This document shows positions 1 through 36,357 of a stretch of 64,000 nt of DNA, in pieces. The translations under genes were made by a program, and so were the position numbers. Position 1 is the first letter of the stretch, and each line of letters opens with the position of its first letter. This stretch comes from Escherichia coli (lineage in GTDB: Bacteria; Pseudomonadota; Gammaproteobacteria; Enterobacterales; Enterobacteriaceae), in the NCBI RefSeq assembly GCF_013122565.1, contig NZ_CP053258.1. One strand, given 5' to 3'. Under the pieces are notes generated by a model. The model saw only the letters and a list, made by a program, of their open reading frames with translations. It searched no databases and was not told the origin of the DNA.

Positions 1-625
1 CGAATTCGGTCAGGATTTACAGGCTATTTCTGCGGGCGGTGGGCTTTCTATTCCTTATCAACAGGGTGAAGAGGCGGTTGATACCGAACATTATTATGGT
101 CTGTGGAATGCCGCGCGTGAGCAAATCGCTCGCCATTTGGGCCACCCTGTGAAACTGGAAATTGAACCGGGTCGCTTCCTGGTAGCGCAGTCTGGCGTAT
201 TAATTACTCAGGTGCGGAGCGTCAAACAAATGGGTAGCCGCCACTTTGTGCTGGTTGATGCCGGGTTCAACGATCTGATGCGCCCGGCAATGTACGGTAG
301 TTACCACCATATCAGTGCCCTGGCAGCTGATGGTCGTTCTCTGGAACACGCGCCAACGGTGGAAACCGTCGTCGCCGGGCCGTTATGTGAATCGGGCGAT
401 GTCTTTACCCAGCAGGAAGGGGGAAATGTCGAAACCCGCGCCTTGCCGGAAGTGAAGGCGGGTGATTATCTGGTACTGCATGATACAGGGGCATATGGCG
501 CATCAATGTCATCCAACTACAATAGCCGTCCGCTGTTACCAGAAGTTCTGTTTGATAATGGTCAGGCGCGGTTGATTCGCCGTCGCCAGACCATCGAAGA
601 ATTACTGGCGCTGGAATTGCTTTAA
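1..625 (+). CDS. lysA: Diaminopimelate decarboxylase, C-terminal part (5' end lies outside the window)
   Basis: Open frame runs from window edge to stop at 623-625; translated C-terminus matches my memory of LysA; position next to galR agrees with K-12 order. Confidence 0.85.
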   Translation, partial: EFGQDLQAISAGGGLSIPYQQGEEAVDTEHYYGLWNAAREQIARHLGHPVKLEIEPGRFLVAQSGVLITQVRSVKQMGSRHFVLVDAGFNDLMRPAMYGSYHHISALAADGRSLEHAPTVETVVAGPLCESGDVFTQQEGGNVETRALPEVKAGDYLVLHDTGAYGASMSSNYNSRPLLPEVLFDNGQARLIRRRQTIEELLALELL

Positions 626-631
626 CTGCGG

Positions 632-1663
632 TTAGTCGCTGGTTGCATGATGACTTGCCTCCAGCGACGGAGTTGACACTGAATGGCGACGTACCAGCGT
701 CGGACTAAAGACATTAGTGATTTCCGGGAGAGGGCGATTATCCGCCAGCGCCAAAGCCAGTTCGGCAGCCTGGGTCGCCATCGTCACGATTGGGTAACGC
801 ACGGTGGTCAGGCGCGGGCGCACATAGCGTGACACCAGCACATCATCAAAGCCAATTAACGAAATCTCACCCGGTACATCAATACCATTATCATTGAGAA
901 CGCCCATCGCACCCGCCGCCATTGAATCGTTATAACAGGCTACCGCAGTGAAATTTCTTCCTCGTCCCAAAAGCTCGGTCATTGCCTGTTCGCCGCCGCT
1001 TTCGTCTGGTTCGCCAAATGTCACCAGCCGGTCATTGGCCGCAATACCACTTTCAGCAAGAGCATCGTAATACCCTTGCAGACGATCTTCGGCGTCAGAA
1101 ATAGAGTGGTTAGAGCACAGATAACCAATGCGGGTATGACCTTGCTGAATTAAATGACGCGTAGCCAGCCAGGCACCGTAACGATCGTCCAGAGCAATAC
1201 AACGGTTTTCAAAGCCAGGCAGGATACGGTTGATCAGCACCATACCGGGCATTTGTTTCATTAATGAGGCTAAATCGGCATCTGGGATCATTTTGGCATG
1301 GACGACCAACGCAGCACAGCGATGGCGGATCAGTTGCTCAATAGCCTGACGCTCTTTTTGTTCGTTGTGGTAACCGTTGCCAATCAATAAGAAATTACCG
1401 GTGTGATAAGCCACCTGTTCGACCGCTTTCACCATTGCACCGAAAAACGGATCGGAAACATCACCAACAACCAGACCGACCGTTTCAGTGGTCTGCTGCG
1501 CCAGCGCACGGGCGTTGGCGTTCGGGTGATAGCTAAGAGACTCCATTGCACTATGCACAGCCAGCCGGGACGCTTCGCTGGCTTTGGGTGAATTATTAAT
1601 GACGCGGGAAACGGTGGCGACTGAAACGCCTGCCAGTCGGGCTACATCCTTTATGGTCGCCAT
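632..1663 (-). CDS. galR: Galactose operon repressor, LacI family
   Basis: 343 aa ORF; N-terminal HTH MATIKDVARLAGVSVATVSRVIN typical of LacI/GalR; synteny with aas and lysA. Confidence 0.92.
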   Translation of the reverse strand: MATIKDVARLAGVSVATVSRVINNSPKASEASRLAVHSAMESLSYHPNANARALAQQTTETVGLVVGDVSDPFFGAMVKAVEQVAYHTGNFLLIGNGYHNEQKERQAIEQLIRHRCAALVVHAKMIPDADLASLMKQMPGMVLINRILPGFENRCIALDDRYGAWLATRHLIQQGHTRIGYLCSNHSISDAEDRLQGYYDALAESGIAANDRLVTFGEPDESGGEQAMTELLGRGRNFTAVACYNDSMAAGAMGVLNDNGIDVPGEISLIGFDDVLVSRYVRPRLTTVRYPIVTMATQAAELALALADNRPLPEITNVFSPTLVRRHSVSTPSLEASHHATSD

Positions 1664-1876
1664 GAAAATACCTTAGTGGGTAAACGCTTACATTCTTTCA
1701 GTGTTACGGAAAACGCCCGTTGGTTCAAGGGGTGGCGTGTTTTCATCGTGGGAATGTGAGCCAAACGCAAATAAGTAAGACAAAAAAAGAGATTGCAAAC
1801 CTTTGGTTACACTTTGCGAAACGCTGTTGCGATTGACCGCTGGTGGCGTTTGGCTTCAGGTTGCTAAAGTGGTGAT

Positions 1877-1958
1877 CCCAGAGGTATTGATAGGTGAAGT
1901 CAACTTCGGGTTGAGCACATGAATTACACCAGCCTGCGCAGATGCGCAGGTTTTTTTT
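1877..1958 (+). ncRNA. omrB: OmrB small RNA (RygB), 82 nt
   Basis: Starts CCCAGAGGTATTGATAGGTGA and ends in a GC hairpin plus T-run; shares 5' and 3' ends with the copy at 2074; length and 116-nt spacing match my recollection of the K-12 aas-galR intergenic sRNAs. Confidence 0.85.
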
Positions 1959-2073
1959 TGCCGGTCATCAATCTGTAACAGTAACCGACAATTTACACAC
2001 CTCGTTGCATTTCCCTTCATTCCTTTGCGTTTTCTCGCTGGCGAAGAGTCGTCGTGCAGACCACAATCAAGAT

Positions 2074-2161
2074 CCCAGAGGTATTGATTGGTGAGATTAT
2101 TCGGTACGCTCTTCGTACCCTGTCTCTTGCACCAACCTGCGCGGATGCGCAGGTTTTTTTT
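2074..2161 (+). ncRNA. omrA: OmrA small RNA (RygA), 88 nt
   Basis: Starts CCCAGAGGTATTGATTGGTGAG and ends CTGCGCGGATGCGCAGG plus T-run; 88 nt and 88 nt upstream of the aas start, as I recall for K-12. Confidence 0.85.
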
Positions 2162-2227
2162 CGCACCTAATTTACTGTCGCTCGCGTTCTTTATCTCGTG
2201 TAATCTCCCTCCATTCGCTTTTACTGA

Positions 2228-5594
<3,367 letters not shown>

Positions 5595-30507: not shown

Positions 30508-30682
30508 TGTTTTTAATTTATTCAATGAATTTATGTTTCATTGAATAAATATTATTTACATAAATGTTGAACGATGGTTTTGTGACTGCTGTCGAATATT
30601 TGAATATCGGCTTAAAAAATAAGCCTGCCATCTCTTTTATTAAGCACAATTCCGTGTAAGGTATACGCATTAGTTAATTATC

Positions 30683-30754
30683 TTGTAACTGTTAAATCAG
30701 GCAAGGCAATGTTTGAAGTAATTATTACTTCTGACATGCCTTGCCTTTTTTTTT
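30683..30754 (+). promoter_or_regulatory. RAT-like sequence overlapping an intrinsic terminator (antitermination leader)
   Basis: TCTTGTAACTGTTAAATCAGGCAAGGCAA resembles bgl/sac RAT elements (TTGTTACTG...CAGGCAAAACC); it overlaps the 5' arm of a long imperfect hairpin (30698-30746) followed by a 9-T run; RBS GGAG and ATG 30766 follow immediately. Confidence 0.6.
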
Positions 30755-30765
30755 GGAGCCATGGA

Positions 30766-31590
30766 ATGATCATCGAAAAAGTCATGAACAATAATTGTGT
30801 ACAGGCATCGGTGAACGGACAGGAGGTTATCATTTCTGGGCCTGGCGTTGGTTACAATAAAAAATATGGTATGTCGGTCCCTGAACATCCTGCAAACCGG
30901 ATTTTTTATGTCAGAAATGAGCAAAAAAATAAACTCTACAAATTGATTGAGCATGTGGGTATTGAGTATATTTTTGTTGCCGAAAAGATAGTGCATTATG
31001 CGGAGAGTAATCTCGAAAAAAAACTCAATCCATCGCTACTACTGATTCTTGCTGATCACATTTCGAATGCAATATCCCGAGTCGTCTCAGGCATACAAAT
31101 TAATAATGTTTTCCTTGAGGAAATCAAAGCGTTGTACAAAGCAGAGTATGCAATAAGTCGTGATGCATTAACAATCATTAATGAGCAATTTAGCGTTCAA
31201 CTACCGGATGATGAGATTGGTTTTATAGCATTGCATATTTTAAATAATTATGAGAATTCAGTTGATTATGAATCAGTACGGATTATTGAGCTGTCTCAAA
31301 AAATCACGGAGCTTATTGAAGTAGTTTATAACAGAAGAGTGGACAGAAGTTCATTTAACTACTCCAGATTTATGATGCACCTTAAATATTTTTCTAGTCG
31401 TGTGTTATGTAATGAAAAAATAAAACAGAAAAATATTGGTGATATCTATGAGCAGTTTCTTGAAAAAGATTTTCAGTTACAACGTGCCATTCATGAAATT
31501 GAAAGATATCTGTACGCAACTTTTAAATATGATTTGATTCTGGAAGAAAAACTATATCTTTCTATTCGCATCAAAGTATTAATGGACTAA
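30766..31590 (+). CDS. BglG/LicT-family transcription antiterminator (CAT RNA-binding domain plus two PRD domains)
   Basis: Start at MIIEKVMNNNCVQASVNGQEVIISGPGVGY (CAT-domain pattern) with RBS GGAG 8 nt upstream; PRD-like histidines (LILADHISN, IALHILNN); about 274 aa; AT-rich codon usage. Confidence 0.75.
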   Translation: MIIEKVMNNNCVQASVNGQEVIISGPGVGYNKKYGMSVPEHPANRIFYVRNEQKNKLYKLIEHVGIEYIFVAEKIVHYAESNLEKKLNPSLLLILADHISNAISRVVSGIQINNVFLEEIKALYKAEYAISRDALTIINEQFSVQLPDDEIGFIALHILNNYENSVDYESVRIIELSQKITELIEVVYNRRVDRSSFNYSRFMMHLKYFSSRVLCNEKIKQKNIGDIYEQFLEKDFQLQRAIHEIERYLYATFKYDLILEEKLYLSIRIKVLMD

Positions 31591-31621
31591 TTATACATAA
31601 CATTTTCATGAGATAACCCGT

Positions 31622-33202
31622 ATGAAACAAAAGAAAGCCTGGAGTTTTTTTCAGAGCCTGGGGAAGGCATTTATGTATCCCATCGCTCTGTTAAGTGTAT
31701 GTGGTATGATGTTAGGGCTGGGAAGTGGTTTAGCCAGCGATGATATGGCAAAATTAATTCCAGTGTTGGCTATTCCGTTAATTAAAACCATACTTGATTT
31801 TATTGTTAGCCTTGGTTTGTTTGCCTTCGTTAATTTACCTGTATTGTTTGCGATAGCTATACCTTTGGGATTATTAAAAGAGAAAGATGATAAAGCCTAT
31901 GGCGCTTTTTCTGGCTTAATTGGCTTTATGGCGATGCATCTTGGAACGAACTTTTATCTTAAACAGCACGACTTATTGGTAGCTGCTGACCAAATGTCGA
32001 CACATGGGCAAACCATCATACTCGGGATCCAGTCATACAATACCAGCGTGTTGGGTGGGATTGTGGCAGGGTTATTAGTCGCCAGCATGTATAAAAAGAT
32101 CGTTAACTTACGTATTCCTGAATCATTAGGGTTTTATAGTGGCCCACGCCTGGTGCCTATCATTACACTGATTGTGATGAGTGGATTTGGTCTGATCATT
32201 CCTTTTATCTGGCCGCCATTTTTCAATCTTTTCATGCTCATTGGTCACTGGATTTCAACTTCCGGTCCTGTTGGTTATTTCTTCTATGCTGTTGCCGAAC
32301 GCGTGACGATACCTTTTGGCTTAAATCACTTGGTGACATCAGTTTTCCGCTTTACCCCAATCGGCGGATCGGCAGTGATTGGCGGTGAAGAGTATTACGG
32401 CACCCTGAACATGTTTATGGCATACGTCAAAGAGAATGCGGTCATTCCGCTGGATTTGGCGGGGAAAATGGAGCAGGGCAAACTGATGATTCAGTATGGT
32501 CTGGCTGGAGCCGCGCTGGCGATGTATCGCACTGCTCATGCTCAAAACAGAAGGGCTATCAAAGCATTGCTGATTTCCGGTGTGCTCACGGTAATTATTG
32601 GCGGCGTCAGCGAGCCGATTGAATTTCTGTTCTTATTTGTCAGCCCGCTGTTGTTTGTCTTCCATGCCTTTATGAATGGATTGGCTAACATGGTTCTGCC
32701 ATATATGGGCGTGAAGATGGGCTTTACTGGCGATCTGATTCAATTTATTAGCTTTGGTGTCTTACGTGGCACAAGAACGGGATGGCCATTAGCGGTATGT
32801 GTTGAAGTGGCTTATTTCTTCATTTATTACTTTGTGTTCCGTTGGACCATTCTCAAATTTAACCTGATGACTGTAGGCCGTGAAGAGTCCAGTCCTGTCA
32901 CGCTGAACGCTCACGAAGAAACTGCAATAGCTAACATCCCAGTTCATGATAAATCAGAGTTGCAGGCAGCGGAGCAAATGGTTAAGGCTCTGGGTGGTAA
33001 AGAAAATATTAAATCACTGGATAATTGTGTAACTCGTTTGCGTTTAACTATCGCGGATATGGGATTGATAGATGAGGCTGCAATAAAAAGGGCCGGAGGA
33101 ATTGCGGTTGTGAAACTTGATCAAAATACCTTACAAGTCATTATCGGTACAAAAGTCATCGCACTACGTCGGGATATGGATAACTACATGGGGATATGTT
33201 GA
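31622..33202 (+). CDS. PTS EIICB component, glucose/maltose (MalX-like) family
   Basis: 526 aa; N-terminus FFQSLGKAFMYPIALLSVCGMMLGLGS and C-terminal EIIB motif SLDNCVTRLRL closely resemble MalX/PtsG as I remember them; no EIIA domain. Confidence 0.8.
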   Translation: MKQKKAWSFFQSLGKAFMYPIALLSVCGMMLGLGSGLASDDMAKLIPVLAIPLIKTILDFIVSLGLFAFVNLPVLFAIAIPLGLLKEKDDKAYGAFSGLIGFMAMHLGTNFYLKQHDLLVAADQMSTHGQTIILGIQSYNTSVLGGIVAGLLVASMYKKIVNLRIPESLGFYSGPRLVPIITLIVMSGFGLIIPFIWPPFFNLFMLIGHWISTSGPVGYFFYAVAERVTIPFGLNHLVTSVFRFTPIGGSAVIGGEEYYGTLNMFMAYVKENAVIPLDLAGKMEQGKLMIQYGLAGAALAMYRTAHAQNRRAIKALLISGVLTVIIGGVSEPIEFLFLFVSPLLFVFHAFMNGLANMVLPYMGVKMGFTGDLIQFISFGVLRGTRTGWPLAVCVEVAYFFIYYFVFRWTILKFNLMTVGREESSPVTLNAHEETAIANIPVHDKSELQAAEQMVKALGGKENIKSLDNCVTRLRLTIADMGLIDEAAIKRAGGIAVVKLDQNTLQVIIGTKVIALRRDMDNYMGIC

Positions 33203-34410
33203 TGGATATTTTTAATACCTCAATTTCTCGTAAAGGAACATATTGCACACAATGGGACTTTTGTGAAGACAGATTTGGTGTAAAAGATGTATTACCATTC
33301 TCTATTTCAGATATGGATCTTCCGATACCGGAAGCTATCATCAGAACATTAAAAAAACGTCTGGAACACCCGATTTTAGGGTACAGTCGTTGGCAGCATG
33401 ATGACTATCTGAATTCGATAGTCAATTGGTATCATCAACAATATAAAACAGAGATTCAACCAGAATGGATCACCTATAGCCCAAGCGTGATGTATTCAAT
33501 ATCTAAGGCAATAGAAATATTGACATTGAATGGAGATAATATTCTCATTTTCACGCCTGTTTATAACGCATTTTATGATGTGATTAAGCATAATGGTCGA
33601 AACATGCTAACAACCTCTTTGATGAAAGAAAATGGGAGAGGCTACGTTATCAACTGGCAAGACTTTGAGCTTAAAATTAAAAGCGCGAAGATGGTGTTAT
33701 TATGTAATCCTCATAACCCGACAGGAACGGTCTGGTCGGAAGACGATCTTCACAGAATCGCAGCATGCTGTGCAAGGCATAATATTTGGTTATGTTCAGA
33801 TGAAATACATAGTGATTTTGTTTTTAATCATAGTTTCACGTCAGCGCTAACAATAAAAGATGACAAAGTGGTGGTGTTTAATTCGATTTCGAAAACATTT
33901 AATGTTCCTGCGCTAACCGGATCATATATGATTTCAACTGACGATAATTTTAATCATAAGTTCAGAACGATATCGAGGTATCGCGATTTTGTAAACTCCC
34001 CATCAGTACTGAATGTAATTGCGACCATTGTTGCCTATAATGAATGTGAAGAATGGTTAAAGTCATTAAAGGTACATATTGCCTCTAACATTCAATTTAC
34101 CTTGCAGTATTTAAATGAAAATATTCCGGAATTGATCGTATGGCCAGCTGAGGGCTGCTATTTTTCGTGGGTTGATTGCTCGGCCCTTGGTTATCCCTTT
34201 GATAAATTTTACCGTCGATTAATTAACGAAGGGAGAGTAGGTATTATGGCGGGGCATGTTTATGGTACTGAAGGAGAGGGCTATCTGCGTCTTAATCTGG
34301 CCTGCAGTCGAGAAAAATTATATATGGGGCTTGCGCGCCTTGCGAGTGTAATTAAAAATATTAATCAGGAAAAAGAAAATGAACAATACGGATCTTATCC
34401 ATCTTATTAA
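33202..34410 (+). CDS. PLP-dependent C-S lyase / aminotransferase class I-II, MalY/PatB-like
   Basis: N-terminus GTYCTQWDF..DRFG..DVLPFSISDMD closely parallels MalY (GTWCTQWDY..DRFG..LLPFTISDMD); start taken at ATG 33202 (TGATG overlap with the PTS stop, GGGGA 7 nt upstream); alternative ATG at 33196. Confidence 0.78.
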   Translation: MDIFNTSISRKGTYCTQWDFCEDRFGVKDVLPFSISDMDLPIPEAIIRTLKKRLEHPILGYSRWQHDDYLNSIVNWYHQQYKTEIQPEWITYSPSVMYSISKAIEILTLNGDNILIFTPVYNAFYDVIKHNGRNMLTTSLMKENGRGYVINWQDFELKIKSAKMVLLCNPHNPTGTVWSEDDLHRIAACCARHNIWLCSDEIHSDFVFNHSFTSALTIKDDKVVVFNSISKTFNVPALTGSYMISTDDNFNHKFRTISRYRDFVNSPSVLNVIATIVAYNECEEWLKSLKVHIASNIQFTLQYLNENIPELIVWPAEGCYFSWVDCSALGYPFDKFYRRLINEGRVGIMAGHVYGTEGEGYLRLNLACSREKLYMGLARLASVIKNINQEKENEQYGSYPSY

Positions 34411-34975
34411 ACATTTTATGCGTAACGAACATAAAGCAGTAGAAGAGGTTATTGATTCCCCCCTTTCGGAAGTCGCGAATTTAATTAAAATATTACAATC
34501 TTGCCAGGGAAAAGTTGTTTTTATTGGTGTTGGGAAATCTGGCATTATTGCCAGAAAACTTGCTGCAACATTTGCCAGCACCGGAACTCCCTCGTTTTTT
34601 GTTCACGGTACGGAAGCGGTACACGGCGACCTTGGGATGGTGGCGAAAGACGATGTTGTTATTCTTATTTCAAACAGTGGTGAGACGGCGGAAATCCTGG
34701 CGACACTGCCTAGTTTGAAAAAAATGGGTAATTATTTGATCTCTTTTACCCGCAGTCATCACTCATCGCTTGCGATAAGTTGTGATTTATCTGTTGAAAT
34801 CCCCGTCAAAAGTGAGGCGGATAATTTAGGTTTAGCACCGTCATGCTCGTCTACTGTTGTTCTGGTTGTTGGTGATGCGGTGGCGCTTGCACTCTCTGAA
34901 TTGAAAAAATTTACTCGTGCTGATTTCGGCTTATATCATCCAGGAGGTGCACTCGGCATTAAAGCAAATTCATAA
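34379..34975 (+). CDS. SIS-domain sugar-phosphate isomerase (KdsD/GutQ-type SIS without CBS domains; candidate arabinose-5-phosphate isomerase)
   Basis: 198 aa; VFIGVGKSGIIARKLAATFASTGTPSFFVHGTEAVHGDLGMV matches the N-terminal SIS domain of arabinose-5-P isomerases; no CBS tail; RBS AGGA upstream; overlaps the upstream gene by 32 nt. Confidence 0.75.
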   Translation: MNNTDLIHLIKHFMRNEHKAVEEVIDSPLSEVANLIKILQSCQGKVVFIGVGKSGIIARKLAATFASTGTPSFFVHGTEAVHGDLGMVAKDDVVILISNSGETAEILATLPSLKKMGNYLISFTRSHHSSLAISCDLSVEIPVKSEADNLGLAPSCSSTVVLVVGDAVALALSELKKFTRADFGLYHPGGALGIKANS

Positions 34976-35046
34976 TTTCAAAGTATAAATACAGTAACCG
35001 GTCACGCCATCTTTTGGGGTGGCGTTCATTGAAGTGAGTGTCAGCT

Positions 35047-35994
35047 ATGAAAAATGTTCTGGTCACCGTCCCCAGCTTTTCAGCACGCTGTGTTTCCGCC
35101 AGCAAGTTGCTAAGAGAGAATAATTTTAACCTTATTATTAAGAATAATGTGGAGCATCTGCTTAAATCAGAATCCACTGCATTACGAGAATCTATTTGCG
35201 CGGTCATCGCCGGAAAAGATTGTTACCAGGCGGACACGCTATCATTGCTGCCTGGTGTGAGAATAATATCGAGATTCGGGACGGGGATAGATAATATTGA
35301 TCTTCGTGCAGCACAACAATCCGGTATTGTAGTCAATAATGCGGTTGGGATTAATTCAAATGCTGTCGCGGAATTTATCATTGGACTTATCTTCGCGAGC
35401 ATGAGAAATATTCCTGGCAGCTATCATGCGATGCAAAATGGCTACTGGGGTGAGTCGCATGGCTATGAATTACAAGGCAAACGGATTGGCCTGGTTGGCT
35501 ACGGCAATATAGGTAAAACCCTGGCAAAAAGGTTATCCGGTTTTGATGTTGAGCTTTTAGCTTATGACAAACAACCCGATTATCAGGTTGCTGACAAAGT
35601 TGGAGTTCAGTTTGTATCAATTGAAGATATCTTTATGCAGTCGCATGTCATCATTGTTCTTTTGCCTTTTTCTCCTGAGCTGGAGAACTTCATTAGTCAT
35701 AAATATTTGTCGATGATGCGCAATGGTGCTCTAATCATCAATGCCGCAAGGGGAAAGTTGCTGGATGAGGGCGCTTTACTACAGGTGATTGAAGAACGAA
35801 ATGTGTTTGCGGCGCTGGATGTGTTTAGCTCTGAACCGTTGGCGCAATTTAGCCCACTGCTACATGCCAAAAATATCATTACAACGCCGCATATTGCGGC
35901 CGCCACCGTTGAGTCATACCAGCAAACCGGTACACACGTTGCCCAGTCGATAATTGATTACTTCGCAGGAAGGGAGATAAAAAACGTGTTGTGA
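35047..35994 (+). CDS. D-isomer-specific 2-hydroxyacid dehydrogenase (NAD-binding)
   Basis: About 315 aa; Rossmann motif GLVGYGNIGKTLAKR; family-typical TTPHIAAAT near the C-terminus; alternative GTG start at 35038. Confidence 0.75.
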   Translation: MKNVLVTVPSFSARCVSASKLLRENNFNLIIKNNVEHLLKSESTALRESICAVIAGKDCYQADTLSLLPGVRIISRFGTGIDNIDLRAAQQSGIVVNNAVGINSNAVAEFIIGLIFASMRNIPGSYHAMQNGYWGESHGYELQGKRIGLVGYGNIGKTLAKRLSGFDVELLAYDKQPDYQVADKVGVQFVSIEDIFMQSHVIIVLLPFSPELENFISHKYLSMMRNGALIINAARGKLLDEGALLQVIEERNVFAALDVFSSEPLAQFSPLLHAKNIITTPHIAAATVESYQQTGTHVAQSIIDYFAGREIKNVL

Positions 35995-36020
35995 GTTCAG
36001 CGAACGAAGTTTTTAAATAC

Positions 36021-36056
36021 AAAAAAACCGCAATTTGTGGAACACATTGCGGTTTA
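36021..36056 (-). terminator. Intrinsic terminator downstream of tRNA-fMet (minus strand)
   Basis: Minus-strand hairpin AACCGCAAT / ATTGCGGTT followed by a 7-T run, immediately 3' of the tRNA. Confidence 0.6.
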
Positions 36057-36062
36057 TCAGCA

Positions 36063-36139
<77 letters not shown>

Positions 36140-36357
36140 CCACCCCGCGTCCGTGGATGCGCACTATACTCCGCTCGCGTTTTCATGCAACCTTTTTTTT
36201 ACCCCGATCACGGTTCTGGCATGATTTTGAACAAAAACAAATCACTAAAGCCTATTTTTTGTGCAAAATTTGCGTCAGGGAGAGGCTGCTCATTTCATTA
36301 AACGCGGCGGTTTGTTATCTTCGTTGCGCCTTATTTTTTAACCTGAAGAAGAGAACA

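What the first reader, a model, noticed from the sequence alone, without database searches (positions are those of the whole stretch)
30508..36062. AT-rich 5.5 kb accessory operon between amiC and tRNA-fMet: antiterminator, MalX-like PTS, MalY-like lyase, SIS-only isomerase and 2-hydroxyacid dehydrogenase
Five tightly packed plus-strand genes (gaps of 31 nt or less, or overlaps) lie where I recall the K-12 reference having only the tRNA-fMet genes next to amiC. Hand counts on sample 60-nt lines give about 28-42 percent G+C inside versus about 45-67 percent in flanking core genes. The combination of a PTS sugar importer, a PLP C-S lyase, a CBS-less KdsD-type SIS isomerase and a D-2-hydroxyacid dehydrogenase is not a textbook pathway. 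I believe it corresponds to the c3405-c3409-type cluster of the metV island in uropathogenic E. coli, where the SIS protein was characterised as an arabinose-5-phosphate isomerase and the cluster was linked to in-host fitness, but the transported substrate and pathway are, to my knowledge, still undefined. Here the module sits alone, without the large island that accompanies it in UPEC.
Basis: partly seen in the sequence, partly recalled or inferred. Interest (0 to 1): 0.8.

Follow-up and report, generated by a model that had tools for sequence, protein, structure and literature searches.

The report
Accessory sugar-uptake operon of E. coli
A five-gene, horizontally acquired operon for importing and breaking down a still-unidentified sugar compound lies between amiC and the initiator-tRNA gene. 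It is the already described c3405-c3409 (PafR) cluster of uropathogenic E. coli, here as a divergent allele without the neighbouring secretion-system island.

Summary
Five intact, co-oriented genes fill 30508-36072 between amiC and tRNA-fMet: a BglG/LicT-type antiterminator, a MalX-like PTS EIICB, a MalY/PatB C-S lyase, a CBS-less KdsD-type SIS isomerase and a PGDH-like 2-hydroxyacid dehydrogenase. G+C is 0.33-0.48 inside against 0.52-0.57 in the flanks. K-12 has only 73 bp at this site.

The module is the published c3405-c3410 / PafR cluster of PAI-CFT073-metV and occurs in 1689 of 5426 complete E. coli genomes, so it is already known. No substrate is defined in the literature I could read, up to 2026.

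New here:
- PAI-metV is composite. The T6SS island is bracketed by a 14-16 nt repeat of the tRNA 3' end and varies independently of the module.
- The window allele differs from the UPEC allele four to five times more than the core genome over its first 4 kb, under purifying selection.
- A conserved RAT-terminator lies in the leader.
- The antiterminator-EIICB-lyase-SIS core recurs in Firmicutes, including C. difficile CD3027-3031. This argues against a Kdo-supply role for the isomerase.
- An EIICB gene sits directly upstream of MalY-like lyase genes in 68 of 78 loci across phyla. This hints at a sugar-amino-acid conjugate as substrate.

The parts
30508..30765 (+). Leader of the operon. AT-rich, with a palindrome at about 30520-30548. 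A candidate -10 (TATACG, about 30662-30667) lies in a block conserved with Citrobacter. The RAT and terminator below follow it.
   Evidence: Sequence read directly. Conservation begins at about 30650 in the alignment with the B2 allele and Citrobacter freundii. The consensus promoter scan found no + strand site here, so the promoter is inferred only.
30683..30705 (+). RAT-like antiterminator target, TTGTAACTGTTAAATCAGGCAAG. It overlaps the 5' arm of the terminator.
   Evidence: The motif TTGTAACTG-N6-CAGGCAAG lies upstream of the antiterminator gene in all 10 enterobacterial cassette loci scanned (9 listed under Enterobacteriaceae names plus unnamed contig L012). Covariation CTG..CAG to CTA..TAG is seen in L016, L011 and L012. 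Enterococcus has it both upstream and between the genes. C. difficile has three tandem copies between antiterminator and EIICB. The resemblance to the sacB/bgl RAT consensus is from memory.
30699..30754 (+). Intrinsic terminator of the leader: a 48-nt hairpin (arms GGCAAGGCA / TGCCTTGCC) followed by a run of 9 T (30746-30754).
   Evidence: RNA fold of 30640-30775 gives -40 kcal/mol with z = -5.1; 0 of 200 shuffles fold as well. A compensatory G-C to A-U change is seen in Citrobacter (GGCAAGACA / TGTCTTGCC).
30766..31590 (+). pafR-type BglG/SacY/LicT-family transcription antiterminator (274 aa).
   Evidence: Pfam: CAT_RBD 1-55 (9e-14), PRD 73-160 (2e-23), weak second PRD 178-266 (E 0.016). NCBIfam LicT scores 230 bits, below the cut-off of 300. 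Alignment to the LicT PRDs (1TLV): the His100, His159 and His207 equivalents are present, and the His269 equivalent is Arg. It is 95% identical in amino acids to the B2 allele.
31622..33202 (+). PTS EIICB of the glucose family, MalX-like (526 aa), with no EIIA domain.
   Evidence: TIGR02004 PTS-IIBC-malX, 1e-161, 539 bits against a cut-off of 632; PtsG 353 bits and NagE 326 bits score lower. The EIIB Cys motif NCVTRLRL and the EIIC motif GVSEPIEF can be read in the translation. dN/dS against the B2 allele is 0.04.
33202..34410 (+). MalY/PatB-family PLP-dependent C-S (beta) lyase (402 aa; 404 aa from the ATG at 33196). Its stop overlaps the SIS gene by 32 nt.
   Evidence: TIGR04350 scores 368.5 bits against a cut-off of 340. 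Best PDB hit is MalY 1D2F (1e-88). The PLP-Lys motif SISKTFNVPALTG, the carboxylate Arg in YLRLN, NPTG, SDEIH and TPVYNAF align with MalY. The B2 allele ends 11 aa earlier.
34379..34975 (+). SIS-only sugar-phosphate isomerase (198 aa), the c3406 orthologue.
   Evidence: NCBIfam KdsD matches only KdsD positions 36-201 of 328. TIGR00393 scores 191.9 against a cut-off of 203.7. It is 98% identical to PDB 5UQI/5VHU. It aligns to the KdsD SIS domain 2XHZ with GVGKSG, HGDLG, SNSGE and LGLAP conserved, and HPGG lies at the C-terminus.
35047..35994 (+). D-isomer-specific 2-hydroxyacid dehydrogenase, PGDH-like but without an ACT domain (315 aa; alternative GTG start at 35038).
   Evidence: TIGR01327 PGDH scores 221 bits against a cut-off of 454; glyoxylate reductase gives 2e-51. 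Best PDB hit is 1WWK. The motifs GYGNIGK, AYD, NAARG, DVFSSEP and TPHIAA can be read in the translation. It is present only in the Escherichia/Citrobacter/Atlantibacter versions and two metagenome contigs.
36021..36055 (-). Hairpin plus U7 on the minus strand. It is a replacement terminator for the tRNA-fMet operon at the island's right edge, and may also act as a weak terminator for the dehydrogenase gene on the plus strand.
   Evidence: RNA fold of the minus strand 36075-36005 gives -19.7 kcal/mol with z = -5.0. The K-12 spacer carries different hairpins that the island has replaced.
36073..36149 (-). Single tRNA-fMet (CAU). It marks the right boundary of the island but is not part of it.
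   Evidence: ARAGORN and Rfam tRNA. It is identical to K-12 metZ/W/V.

Best explanation
This is the PafR operon (c3405-c3409 of PAI-CFT073-metV). It is a horizontally acquired, self-contained PTS catabolic cassette inserted in the amiC-metV spacer.

Proposed working:
1. Transcription starts in the leader and stops at the intrinsic terminator (30699-30754).
2. When the substrate is being transported, the EIICB stops phosphorylating PafR. PafR then binds the overlapping RAT (30683-30705), and all five genes are read through, including pafR itself.
3. The MalX-like EIICB, fed by the housekeeping EIIA-Glc (Crr), takes up and phosphorylates a glucose-family sugar derivative.
4. The MalY-like PLP lyase and the SIS isomerase convert the phosphorylated product into central metabolites. 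The lyase probably works by alpha,beta-elimination on an amino-acid moiety, giving pyruvate and ammonia. The isomerase performs an aldose-ketose step on the released sugar phosphate; in vitro it is an arabinose-5-P/ribulose-5-P isomerase.
5. The dehydrogenase is a later add-on that handles a 2-oxo/2-hydroxy-acid product.

Shown here: gene content, family assignments, conserved catalytic motifs, the RAT-terminator, absence from K-12, distribution, purifying selection, and conservation of the four-gene core across phyla.

Inferred: the phosphorylation control of PafR, the dependence on Crr, the lyase acting on the PTS product, and the nature of the substrate. I favour a glycosyl-cysteine or glycosyl-serine type conjugate, but only weakly.
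For: Identity with the published cluster.

Operon architecture and families.

RAT-terminator:
- Fold z = -5.1.
- Compensatory change in the terminator stem in Citrobacter.
- The RAT motif, with covariation, lies upstream of or next to the antiterminator gene in 14 of 16 cassette loci.

Catalytic residues are kept in the lyase, the SIS protein and three of four PRD histidines.

Both E. coli alleles are under purifying selection, with dN/dS 0.04-0.16 despite dS up to 0.51.

The same five genes sit at another chromosomal site in Citrobacter. The antiterminator-EIICB-lyase-SIS core is found in Atlantibacter, Enterobacter, Enterococcus termitis, C. difficile, Clostridium, Massilicoli and Solobacterium. 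Across these the EIICB stays 62-85% identical while the lyase drops to 42-68%.

A MalX-like EIICB gene lies immediately upstream of the MalY-like lyase gene in 68 of 78 loci from Fusobacteria, Brachyspira, Vibrionaceae, Bacilli and Enterobacteriaceae. These loci carry four different regulator types and no shared glycosidase.

In-frame lyase-SIS fusions exist in some E. coli.
Against: - No growth substrate or inducer is known for any member.
- According to secondary citations, PafR was described as a regulator expressed only in vivo that affects many unlinked genes, including capsule, motility and biofilm genes. This fits a regulatory role as well as a catabolic one.
- The only activity reported for the SIS protein is arabinose-5-P isomerase (title). 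That activity has no obvious place after a hexose-type PTS.
- The C. difficile orthologue of the lyase acts on free cysteine in vitro and was reported as essential.
- K-12 MalY moonlights as a MalT inhibitor (PMC10427625).
- PRD2 of PafR is degenerate: the Pfam E-value is 0.016, and the LicT His269 equivalent is Arg in E. coli and Citrobacter only.
- The EIICB gene is frameshifted in an O111:NM genome, so the operon is dispensable in some lineages.
- No promoter was detected by the consensus scan.
Confidence: 0.6

Rival explanations
1. Virulence-regulatory and Kdo-supply module. PafR is mainly a global regulator switched on in the host. The SIS protein is a fourth arabinose-5-P isomerase that boosts Kdo for LPS or capsule. 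The PTS protein serves only as the sensor that controls PafR, and the lyase acts as a regulator in the way MalY acts on MalT.
For: Secondary citations say PafR changes expression of capsule, motility and biofilm genes and is expressed only in vivo. The SIS protein keeps all KdsD catalytic motifs and was published as an arabinose-5-P isomerase. MalY has a known regulatory moonlighting role (PMC10427625).
Against: - The same antiterminator-EIICB-lyase-SIS cassette is conserved in Gram-positive bacteria that make no Kdo or LPS: C. difficile, Enterococcus, Clostridium and Erysipelotrichales.
- All four enzymes and the transporter are under purifying selection.
- The RAT sits in the operon's own leader.
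- The lyase keeps its full catalytic apparatus.
Confidence: 0.15
2. Amino-sugar or sugar-acid route. The MalY-like protein works as an aminotransferase or dehydratase on a phosphorylated 2-amino sugar acid or amino sugar. It is paired with the dehydrogenase as SerC is with SerA (or with PdxB), and the SIS enzyme isomerises the resulting keto-sugar phosphate.
For: The lyase belongs to the class I/II aminotransferase fold and hits many aminotransferase models. The dehydrogenase is PGDH/PdxB-like. A 42% homologue of the dehydrogenase sits in a TRAP-transporter, DHDPS-like and PfkB sugar-acid cluster in Oceanobacillus.
Against: - The dehydrogenase is missing from most versions of the cassette (C. 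difficile, Enterococcus, Enterobacter), so it cannot be a core step.
- The protein passes the curated PatB C-S lyase cut-off.
- Every characterised close relative in the PDB list is a C-S lyase.
- Glucose-family EIICBs are not known to carry sugar acids (textbook knowledge).
Confidence: 0.12
3. Cryptic or decaying cargo. The operon is a silent, H-NS-silenced AT-rich relic, like bgl in K-12, with no present function in this strain.
For: It is AT-rich. PafR is reported as not expressed in vitro. The EIICB is frameshifted in O111:NM. IS insertions are seen in some genomes (H2, H15, H25). It is absent from 69% of complete genomes.
Against: All five ORFs are intact in the window. dN/dS is 0.04-0.16 across alleles that diverged by dS 0.09-0.51. 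The cassette is conserved across genera.
Confidence: 0.08

Closest known systems
c3405-c3410 (PafR operon) of PAI-CFT073-metV in uropathogenic E. coli
   Same: Same five genes, same order and same insertion point after amiC. Identity is 92.5% in nucleotides and 85-98% in amino acids, with the same RAT-terminator leader.
   Different: - The window allele has dS 0.34-0.51 against the UPEC allele over pafR, EIICB and lyase, compared with 0.09 for the core genes.
- The lyase has lost its stop codon and runs 11 aa further.
- No T6SS island lies between the module and the tRNA.
- Only one tRNA-fMet copy is present.
E. coli K-12 malX-malY (regulated by malI)
   Same: A MalX-type EIICB is followed directly by a MalY-type C-S lyase. 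The natural substrate is also unknown. The pairing is conserved in 68 of 78 loci across phyla.
   Different: Identity is about 41% (EIICB) and 36% (lyase), as reported for the B2 allele in PMC12928451. malXY has a LacI-type repressor instead of an antiterminator, and no SIS isomerase or dehydrogenase.
C. difficile CD3027-CD3031 (antiterminator, EIICB, malY, SIS, EIIA)
   Same: Same order for the first four genes (EIICB 68%, lyase 50%, SIS 52% identical), RAT motifs, and a location in a variable chromosomal region.
   Different: It has its own EIIA-Glc and no dehydrogenase. It carries three tandem RATs between the antiterminator and EIICB genes rather than one upstream of the antiterminator gene. 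Its antiterminator keeps the fourth PRD histidine.
bglGFB of E. coli, and licT-bglPH / glcT-ptsG of B. subtilis (RAT-dependent antitermination of PTS operons)
   Same: A CAT plus two-PRD antiterminator, a RAT overlapping an intrinsic terminator in the leader, and a cognate PTS permease encoded next to it.
   Different: There is no phospho-glycosidase, and the downstream enzymes are a PLP lyase and a SIS isomerase. The scores lie below the curated LicT, GlcT and BglG cut-offs. PRD2 lacks one histidine.
gutQ in the glucitol PTS operon of E. coli
   Same: An arabinose-5-P-isomerase-type SIS protein encoded at the end of a PTS sugar operon, with no obvious metabolic role there (established knowledge).
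   Different: GutQ has the tandem CBS domains. This protein is SIS-only at 198 aa.

Membership tests
BglG/SacY/LicT antiterminators | N-terminal CAT RNA-binding domain followed by two PRDs | tested here: met
   Pfam CAT_RBD 9e-14 and PRD1 2e-23. PRD2 is only weak at E 0.016. The protein aligns over both PRDs of LicT 1TLV.
BglG/SacY/LicT antiterminators | Four conserved phosphorylatable histidines (LicT H100, H159, H207, H269) | tested here: not met
   Three are present. The H269 equivalent is Arg in both E. coli alleles and in Citrobacter, but His in the Enterobacter, Enterococcus and C. difficile homologues. Some family members also lack one His, so this is a variant feature and not an exclusion.
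BglG/SacY/LicT antiterminators | RAT RNA target overlapping an intrinsic terminator upstream of the regulated genes | tested here: met
   RAT at 30683-30705 overlaps the hairpin at 30699-30746, which is followed by a T-run to 30754. Fold z = -5.1. Covariation is seen in both the RAT and the terminator stem.
BglG/SacY/LicT antiterminators | Curated equivalog score (LicT, GlcT, BglG) | tested here: not met
   Scores of 230, 182 and 105 bits against cut-offs of 300, 320 and 322. It is a family member but not an equivalog of any named one.
PTS glucose-family EIICB (MalX subfamily) | EIIC domain followed by an EIIB domain with the phosphorylatable Cys | tested here: met
   TIGR02004 covers residues 6-521. 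The EIIB_glc domain covers 412-509, at 62.6 bits against a cut-off of 45.75. The motif NCVTRLRL is read.
PTS glucose-family EIICB (MalX subfamily) | Curated MalX score | tested here: not met
   538.7 bits against a cut-off of 632.2. Cassette EIICBs form a group that is 62-97% identical, while malXY-type EIICBs are 40-46% identical to it.
PTS glucose-family EIICB (MalX subfamily) | Dependence on EIIA-Glc (Crr) and phosphorylation of a sugar | not testable with these tools
   The operon has no EIIA domain. The C. difficile version carries its own EIIA_1 gene.
MalY/PatB C-S lyases | Curated subfamily score and PLP-binding/catalytic residues | tested here: met
   TIGR04350 scores 368.5 against a cut-off of 340. 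The residues aligning with the MalY motifs SGSKSFN (PLP Lys), VRLN (Arg), NPTG, SDEIH and TPAY are conserved. The residue numbering is from memory.
MalY/PatB C-S lyases | Beta C-S lyase activity | not testable with these tools
   Reported only for relatives: E. coli MalY and C. difficile MalY, the latter by cysteine desulfhydrase zymogram.
KdsD/GutQ/KpsF arabinose-5-phosphate isomerases | SIS domain with catalytic Lys/Glu/His residues | tested here: met
   It aligns to KdsD SIS 2XHZ at 1e-40, with GxGKSG, HGDLG, SNSGE and LGLAP conserved and HPGG at the C-terminus.
KdsD/GutQ/KpsF arabinose-5-phosphate isomerases | Tandem CBS domains C-terminal to the SIS domain | tested here: not met
   The protein is 198 aa and matches only KdsD model positions 36-201 of 328. 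TIGR00393 scores 191.9 against a cut-off of 203.7.
KdsD/GutQ/KpsF arabinose-5-phosphate isomerases | Arabinose-5-P to ribulose-5-P activity | not testable with these tools
   Published for CFT073 c3406 (title of Mosberg et al. 2011, seen in reference lists; the paper itself is not held). The window protein is 98% identical to PDB 5UQI. That this entry is the CFT073 c3406 protein is my assumption; the entry's source organism was not checked.
D-isomer-specific 2-hydroxyacid dehydrogenases (PGDH-like) | Catalytic and NAD-binding domains with GxGxxG and the Arg-Glu-His triad | tested here: met
   Pfam 2-Hacid_dh plus 2-Hacid_dh_C on cluster members and homologues. The motifs GYGNIGK, NAARG, DVFSSEP and TPHIAA are read. 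The motif assignment comes from family knowledge.
D-isomer-specific 2-hydroxyacid dehydrogenases (PGDH-like) | SerA equivalog (ACT domain, curated score) | tested here: not met
   221 bits against a cut-off of 454. The protein is 315 aa and has no ACT domain.
tRNA-targeted genomic island (integrase-mediated) | Integrase gene and a direct repeat of the tRNA 3' end at the far boundary | tested here: not met
   The module has no integrase ORF. The window holds no second copy of TGGTTGCGGGGGCC with fewer than 3 mismatches. By contrast, the T6SS island in B2 strains does have the 14-16 nt repeat.

The most novel reading that the evidence does not exclude
The cassette and the much wider family of MalX-MalY gene pairs form an unrecognised catabolic route for glycosyl-amino-acid conjugates, such as S-glycosyl-cysteine or O-glycosyl-serine/threonine released from glycopeptides. 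The PTS permease would phosphorylate the sugar. A PLP beta-lyase, not a glycosidase, would then free it by eliminating it from the amino acid, giving a sugar phosphate plus pyruvate and ammonia. In the PafR-type cassette the SIS enzyme would isomerise the released sugar phosphate. This would also give K-12 MalX and MalY the natural substrate they have lacked since 1991.
Probability: 0.2. Interest if true: 0.75.

Novelty: already known. Interest (0 to 1): 0.4.

Why it matters
The cluster has been linked to urinary-tract fitness of E. coli, and its regulator is reportedly switched on only in the host. Even so, nobody has named the compound it handles. Identifying that compound would define a host- or diet-derived nutrient used by about a third of E. 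coli strains, by Citrobacter and by C. difficile. The conserved pairing of a MalX-type transporter with a MalY-type lyase suggests the same answer would also explain the K-12 malXY genes.

The comparative results narrow the experiment:
- Use the RAT-terminator leader as an inducer reporter.
- Treat the four-gene core as the pathway and the dehydrogenase as optional.
- Drop Kdo supply as the primary role of the isomerase.

For genome annotation, 'PAI-metV' is two independent units, a sugar operon and a T6SS island.

Tried and rejected
- The three primary papers could not be read: Mosberg 2011 (DOI and two PMC ids), Baum 2014 and Lloyd 2007/2009. Statements about them rest on titles and secondary citations.
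- A bare 'pafR' literature search returned only platelet-activating-factor-receptor papers.
- Counting 'module alone' genomes with a junction query that included the tRNA failed, because the three tandem tRNA copies split the alignments. I replaced it with the T6SS-junction query and a 'best' listing.
- I looked for a direct repeat of the tRNA 3' end at the amiC side of the module and found none. An integrase-type insertion of the module itself is therefore not supported.
- The consensus promoter scan found no plus-strand promoter in the leader.
- The Oceanobacillus dehydrogenase homologue lies in an unrelated TRAP/sugar-acid cluster and is probably not orthologous.
- PDB 4DGT from C. difficile is a paralogue, not the cassette lyase. 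This is inferred from the two separately reported alignments; the percentages were not tabulated.
- The 75%-identical 'copy' in strain HS-02 is a 4.1-kb unannotated stretch with 27% G+C, 635 missing bases and C-specific losses. It is most likely a base-calling or assembly artefact and not a third allele.
- No other Escherichia species representative appeared among the 80 best lyase loci, so the donor of the divergent allele was not identified.

Full report

Yes. Between the amiC stop (30507) and the 3' end of a tRNA-Met(CAU) gene (36073-36149, minus strand) lie five intact plus-strand ORFs.

NCBIfam assigns them as follows:
- a LicT/GlcT/BglG-type antiterminator
- a MalX-type PTS EIICB (1e-161)
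- a PatB-family C-S lyase (368 bits, above the curated cut-off of 340)
- the SIS half of KdsD/KpsF (198 aa, no room for CBS domains)
- a PGDH-like D-2-hydroxyacid dehydrogenase

G+C in 500-nt windows is 0.33-0.48 inside and 0.52-0.57 in the flanking core genes. At 2-kb resolution this is the only such stretch in the 64 kb.

The rest of the window is ordinary E. coli backbone. It carries omrA/B, gcvB and csrB. In related genomes the genes around the module are annotated as recC-ptrA-recB-recD-argA-amiC and mltA-tcdA-csdEA-gcvA, followed by the fuc genes.

K-12 MG1655 has amiC, 73 bp, then metV-metW-metZ. Alignments show the island replaces exactly that spacer, starting right after the amiC stop and ending at the tRNA's 3' end.

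- The SIS-dehydrogenase gap is 62-71 nt.
- The antiterminator most likely starts at 30766, as PGAP calls it in related genomes.
- Only one tRNA-fMet copy is present.

**2. What is it?**

It is the published cluster c3405-c3410 of PAI-CFT073-metV.
- Megablast of the 5.5 kb finds it in 1689 of 5426 complete E. coli genomes. Of these, 261 match at 99% or more (the window's allele, e.g. O111:NM) and 1422 at 90-95%.
- In the UPEC-type strain clone D i2 the same five genes follow amiC and are followed by a T6SS cluster of about 27 kb, then metZWV.
- PMC2831201 lists 'c3405-c3410, PTS system, maltose/glucose specific' inside PAI-CFT073-metV.
- PMC8882828 and others describe pafR as a regulator encoded on the metV island. 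They say it affects virulence, biofilm and motility genes and matters in mouse UTI.
- The title of Mosberg et al. 2011 documents an arabinose 5-phosphate isomerase from a CFT073 island.
- The window's SIS protein is 98% identical to PDB 5UQI/5VHU.
- A 2026 genome paper still annotates the five ORFs ('GR 19' of strain BEN2908) by homology only. It gives 41% identity to MalX, 36% to MalY, 52% to KdsD, 32% to SerA and 30% to BglG.

I found no paper in the held library that names a substrate.

**3. Structure of the locus: two independent units**

In clone D i2 the spacer after the dehydrogenase gene is the same as in the window. It ends with ATTGGTTGCGGGGGCC, the first 14-16 nt of the tRNA's 3' end, and the sequence then diverges into the T6SS island. 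The intact tRNA array lies at the other end of that island. The T6SS island is therefore bracketed by a direct repeat of the tRNA 3' end. It was inserted into metV in a chromosome that already carried the sugar operon, or it was later excised precisely from one.

All four states exist:
- empty (K-12)
- module only (the window; O111:NM)
- T6SS only (E. coli W, with a MucR-like gene next to amiC)
- both

The module-T6SS junction is found in 956 genomes. Among the sampled genomes that carry the module without this junction, most have it directly against tRNA-Met (H78-H84). A smaller group has a variant junction (H73-H74).

The module itself has no integrase and no such repeat at its amiC side. 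Its right edge carries a hairpin plus U7 on the minus strand that replaces the K-12 terminator of the tRNA operon.

**4. Two deep alleles**

| Gene(s) | dS, window vs clone D i2 |
|---|---|
| pafR | 0.38 |
| EIICB | 0.34 |
| lyase | 0.51 |
| SIS | 0.13 |
| dehydrogenase | 0.09 |
| amiC, recD (flanking core genes) | 0.09 |

dN/dS for the five module genes is 0.04-0.16. The sliding identity jumps from about 0.88-0.93 to 1.00 near 34640, inside the SIS gene.

The 3' 1.4 kb has thus diverged with the chromosome. The 5' 4 kb is a much older allele, most simply explained by homologous replacement from a divergent, unidentified donor. Both alleles are maintained by purifying selection, which argues against a dead relic.

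In the window allele the lyase stop codon is lost, so the ORF runs 11 codons further and overlaps the SIS gene by 32 nt. In some strains the A-rich junction has produced in-frame lyase-SIS fusions of 550-592 aa.

**5. Regulation**

- The leader holds a 48-nt hairpin (30699-30746) followed by a run of nine T. The fold energy is -40 kcal/mol with z = -5.1.
- Its 5' arm overlaps TTGTAACTGTTAAATCAGGCAAG (30683-30705). This resembles the RAT consensus of sacB/bgl/licT systems (from memory).
- The block from about 30650 to the start codon is nearly invariant between both E. coli alleles and Citrobacter freundii, while the sequence upstream is not. Citrobacter shows a compensatory G-C to A-U change in the stem.
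- The motif recurs upstream of the antiterminator gene in all enterobacterial versions, with CTG..CAG to CTA..TAG covariation. In Enterococcus it is found both upstream and between the genes. In C. difficile it occurs as three tandem copies between the antiterminator and EIICB genes.
- PafR has a CAT domain, a strong PRD1 and a weak PRD2. Three of the four LicT histidines are kept. The H269 equivalent is Arg in E. coli and Citrobacter but His in the other homologues.

The 31-nt gap between pafR and the EIICB gene leaves no room for a second terminator. One RAT-terminator therefore controls the whole operon, including pafR.

**6. Comparative genomics and what it says about function**

*The dehydrogenase.* It has few close relatives outside E. 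coli: Citrobacter at about 70% and two metagenome contigs at about 48%. In C. freundii the same five genes sit at a different chromosomal site, between the fadE region and dnaQ-rnhA. The cassette is thus a mobile unit.

*The lyase.* Its next relatives at about 50% are in C. difficile, Terrisporobacter, Enterococcus and an Enterobacter. Their contexts show the same antiterminator-EIICB-lyase-SIS order. C. difficile adds an EIIA and has no dehydrogenase.

*The species-representative scan.* A scan of the GTDB species genomes with a lyase alignment returned 80 loci. tblastn of the five window proteins against them separates two classes.

| | PafR type | malXY type |
|---|---|---|
| Content | antiterminator, EIICB, lyase, SIS | EIICB and lyase only |
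| EIICB identity to the window | 62-97% | 40-46% |
| Taxa | Escherichia, Citrobacter, Atlantibacter, Enterobacter, Enterococcus termitis, C. difficile, Clostridium, Massilicoli, Solobacterium | Fusobacterium, Brachyspira, Photobacterium/Vibrio, many Bacilli, several Enterobacteriaceae |

Clustering of neighbouring ORFs shows an EIICB directly upstream of the lyase in 68 of 78 loci. Those loci have LacI-type, RpiR-type, BglG-type or large PRD-type regulators, and no other shared enzyme.

*Three inferences follow.*
1. The core pathway is transporter plus lyase, plus the SIS isomerase in the PafR type. The dehydrogenase is a late addition.
2. The SIS enzyme is conserved in Gram-positive bacteria without Kdo. 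Supplying arabinose-5-P for Kdo therefore cannot be its ancestral role, whatever its in vitro activity.
3. A transporter-lyase pairing kept under four kinds of regulator in at least four phyla points to a metabolic link, meaning the lyase acts on what the transporter brings in. Characterised members of this subfamily are beta C-S lyases. The simplest chemistry is therefore elimination of a phosphorylated sugar from a cysteine- or serine-type conjugate. This last step is inference only.

In C. difficile the cassette (CD3027-CD3031) also lies in a variable region. Its malY is the most induced gene in biofilm, and no substrate is named there either.

**7. Verdict**

What remains open is its substrate.

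The added value here:
- the composite nature of PAI-metV
- the deep allelic split with a break inside the SIS gene
- the explicit RAT-terminator
- the cross-phylum cassette, which removes the Kdo explanation
- the strong MalX-MalY gene pairing, which suggests a testable substrate class

I rate novelty as 'already known' and interest as moderate (0.4). The most novel reading not excluded, a PLP-lyase-based route for glycosyl-amino-acid conjugates, has about a one-in-five chance and would be of high interest if true.

Noticed in passing
window 36073-36149 (minus strand): There is only one tRNA-fMet gene where K-12, O111:NM and clone D i2 have the tandem metZ-metW-metV array with a 110-bp period. 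Among the 25 module-bearing complete genomes where this query matched in one place, the listing shows 1-copy and 2-copy arrays in roughly equal numbers. The state is therefore a rare but real contraction of the initiator-tRNA array, not necessarily an assembly collapse.
   Followed up: partly
window 34360-34410; proteins P0124, P0125, P0126: In the window-type allele the lyase stop codon is lost, and the A-rich junction (GGAAAAAGAAAATG) overlaps the SIS start. Some E. coli and Shigella genomes carry in-frame lyase-SIS fusion ORFs of 550-592 aa. One of these, with an in-frame deletion, is seen on 11 contigs including a complete chromosome.
   Followed up: partly
L002 25560-25580 (clone D i2) versus window 36057-36086: The T6SS island of B2 strains is bracketed by the intact metV and a 14-16 nt direct repeat of the tRNA 3' end (ATTGGTTGCGGGGGCC). 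This repeat sits right after the sugar operon's spacer. E. coli W has the T6SS island plus a MucR-family gene but no sugar operon.
   Followed up: yes
window 30508-34640 versus 34640-36072: There is a sharp change in divergence from the UPEC allele: dS is 0.34-0.51 before about 34640 and 0.09-0.13 after, compared with 0.09 for the core genes. This indicates an old recombination break inside the SIS gene. The donor is unknown.
   Followed up: partly
L009 4999, 5102, 5206 (C. difficile): Three tandem RAT motifs about 100 nt apart lie between the antiterminator gene and the EIICB gene of the C. difficile cassette. This is an unusual triple arrangement. The terminator hairpins themselves were not examined.
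   Followed up: no
window 31560-31580 (PafR residue about 268): The fourth conserved PRD histidine (LicT His269) is Arg in both E. coli alleles and in Citrobacter, but His in the Enterobacter, Enterococcus and C. difficile homologues. These are the same versions that carry the dehydrogenase and have the RAT moved upstream of the antiterminator gene.
   Followed up: partly
L001 7116-8682 (E. coli O111:NM 08-4377): The EIICB gene of the window-type allele is annotated as frameshifted in this O111:NM genome. IS4, IS1 and ISVsa5 insertions interrupt the module in a few other genomes (H2, H15, H25).
   Followed up: no
L094 4360-8471 (E. coli HS-02, NZ_CP172818.1): At the same site lies a 4.1-kb unannotated stretch with 27% G+C that is 69-75% identical to the module. 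It has 635 missing bases and mostly C-specific losses. It looks like a base-calling or assembly artefact, not a third allele.
   Followed up: partly
window 30520-30548 and 30579-30598: A perfect AT-rich palindrome (TTATTCAATGAA-N8-TTCATTGAATAA) sits directly after the amiC stop. A weak CRP-like half-site pair (TGTGA-N6-TCGAA) lies further on in the leader. Neither was tested, and the second is only partly conserved in Citrobacter.
   Followed up: no
window 36021-36055 (minus strand): The island's right edge supplies a new hairpin plus U7 terminator for the tRNA-fMet operon (z = -5.0). It replaces the different terminator found in the K-12 spacer.
   Followed up: yes
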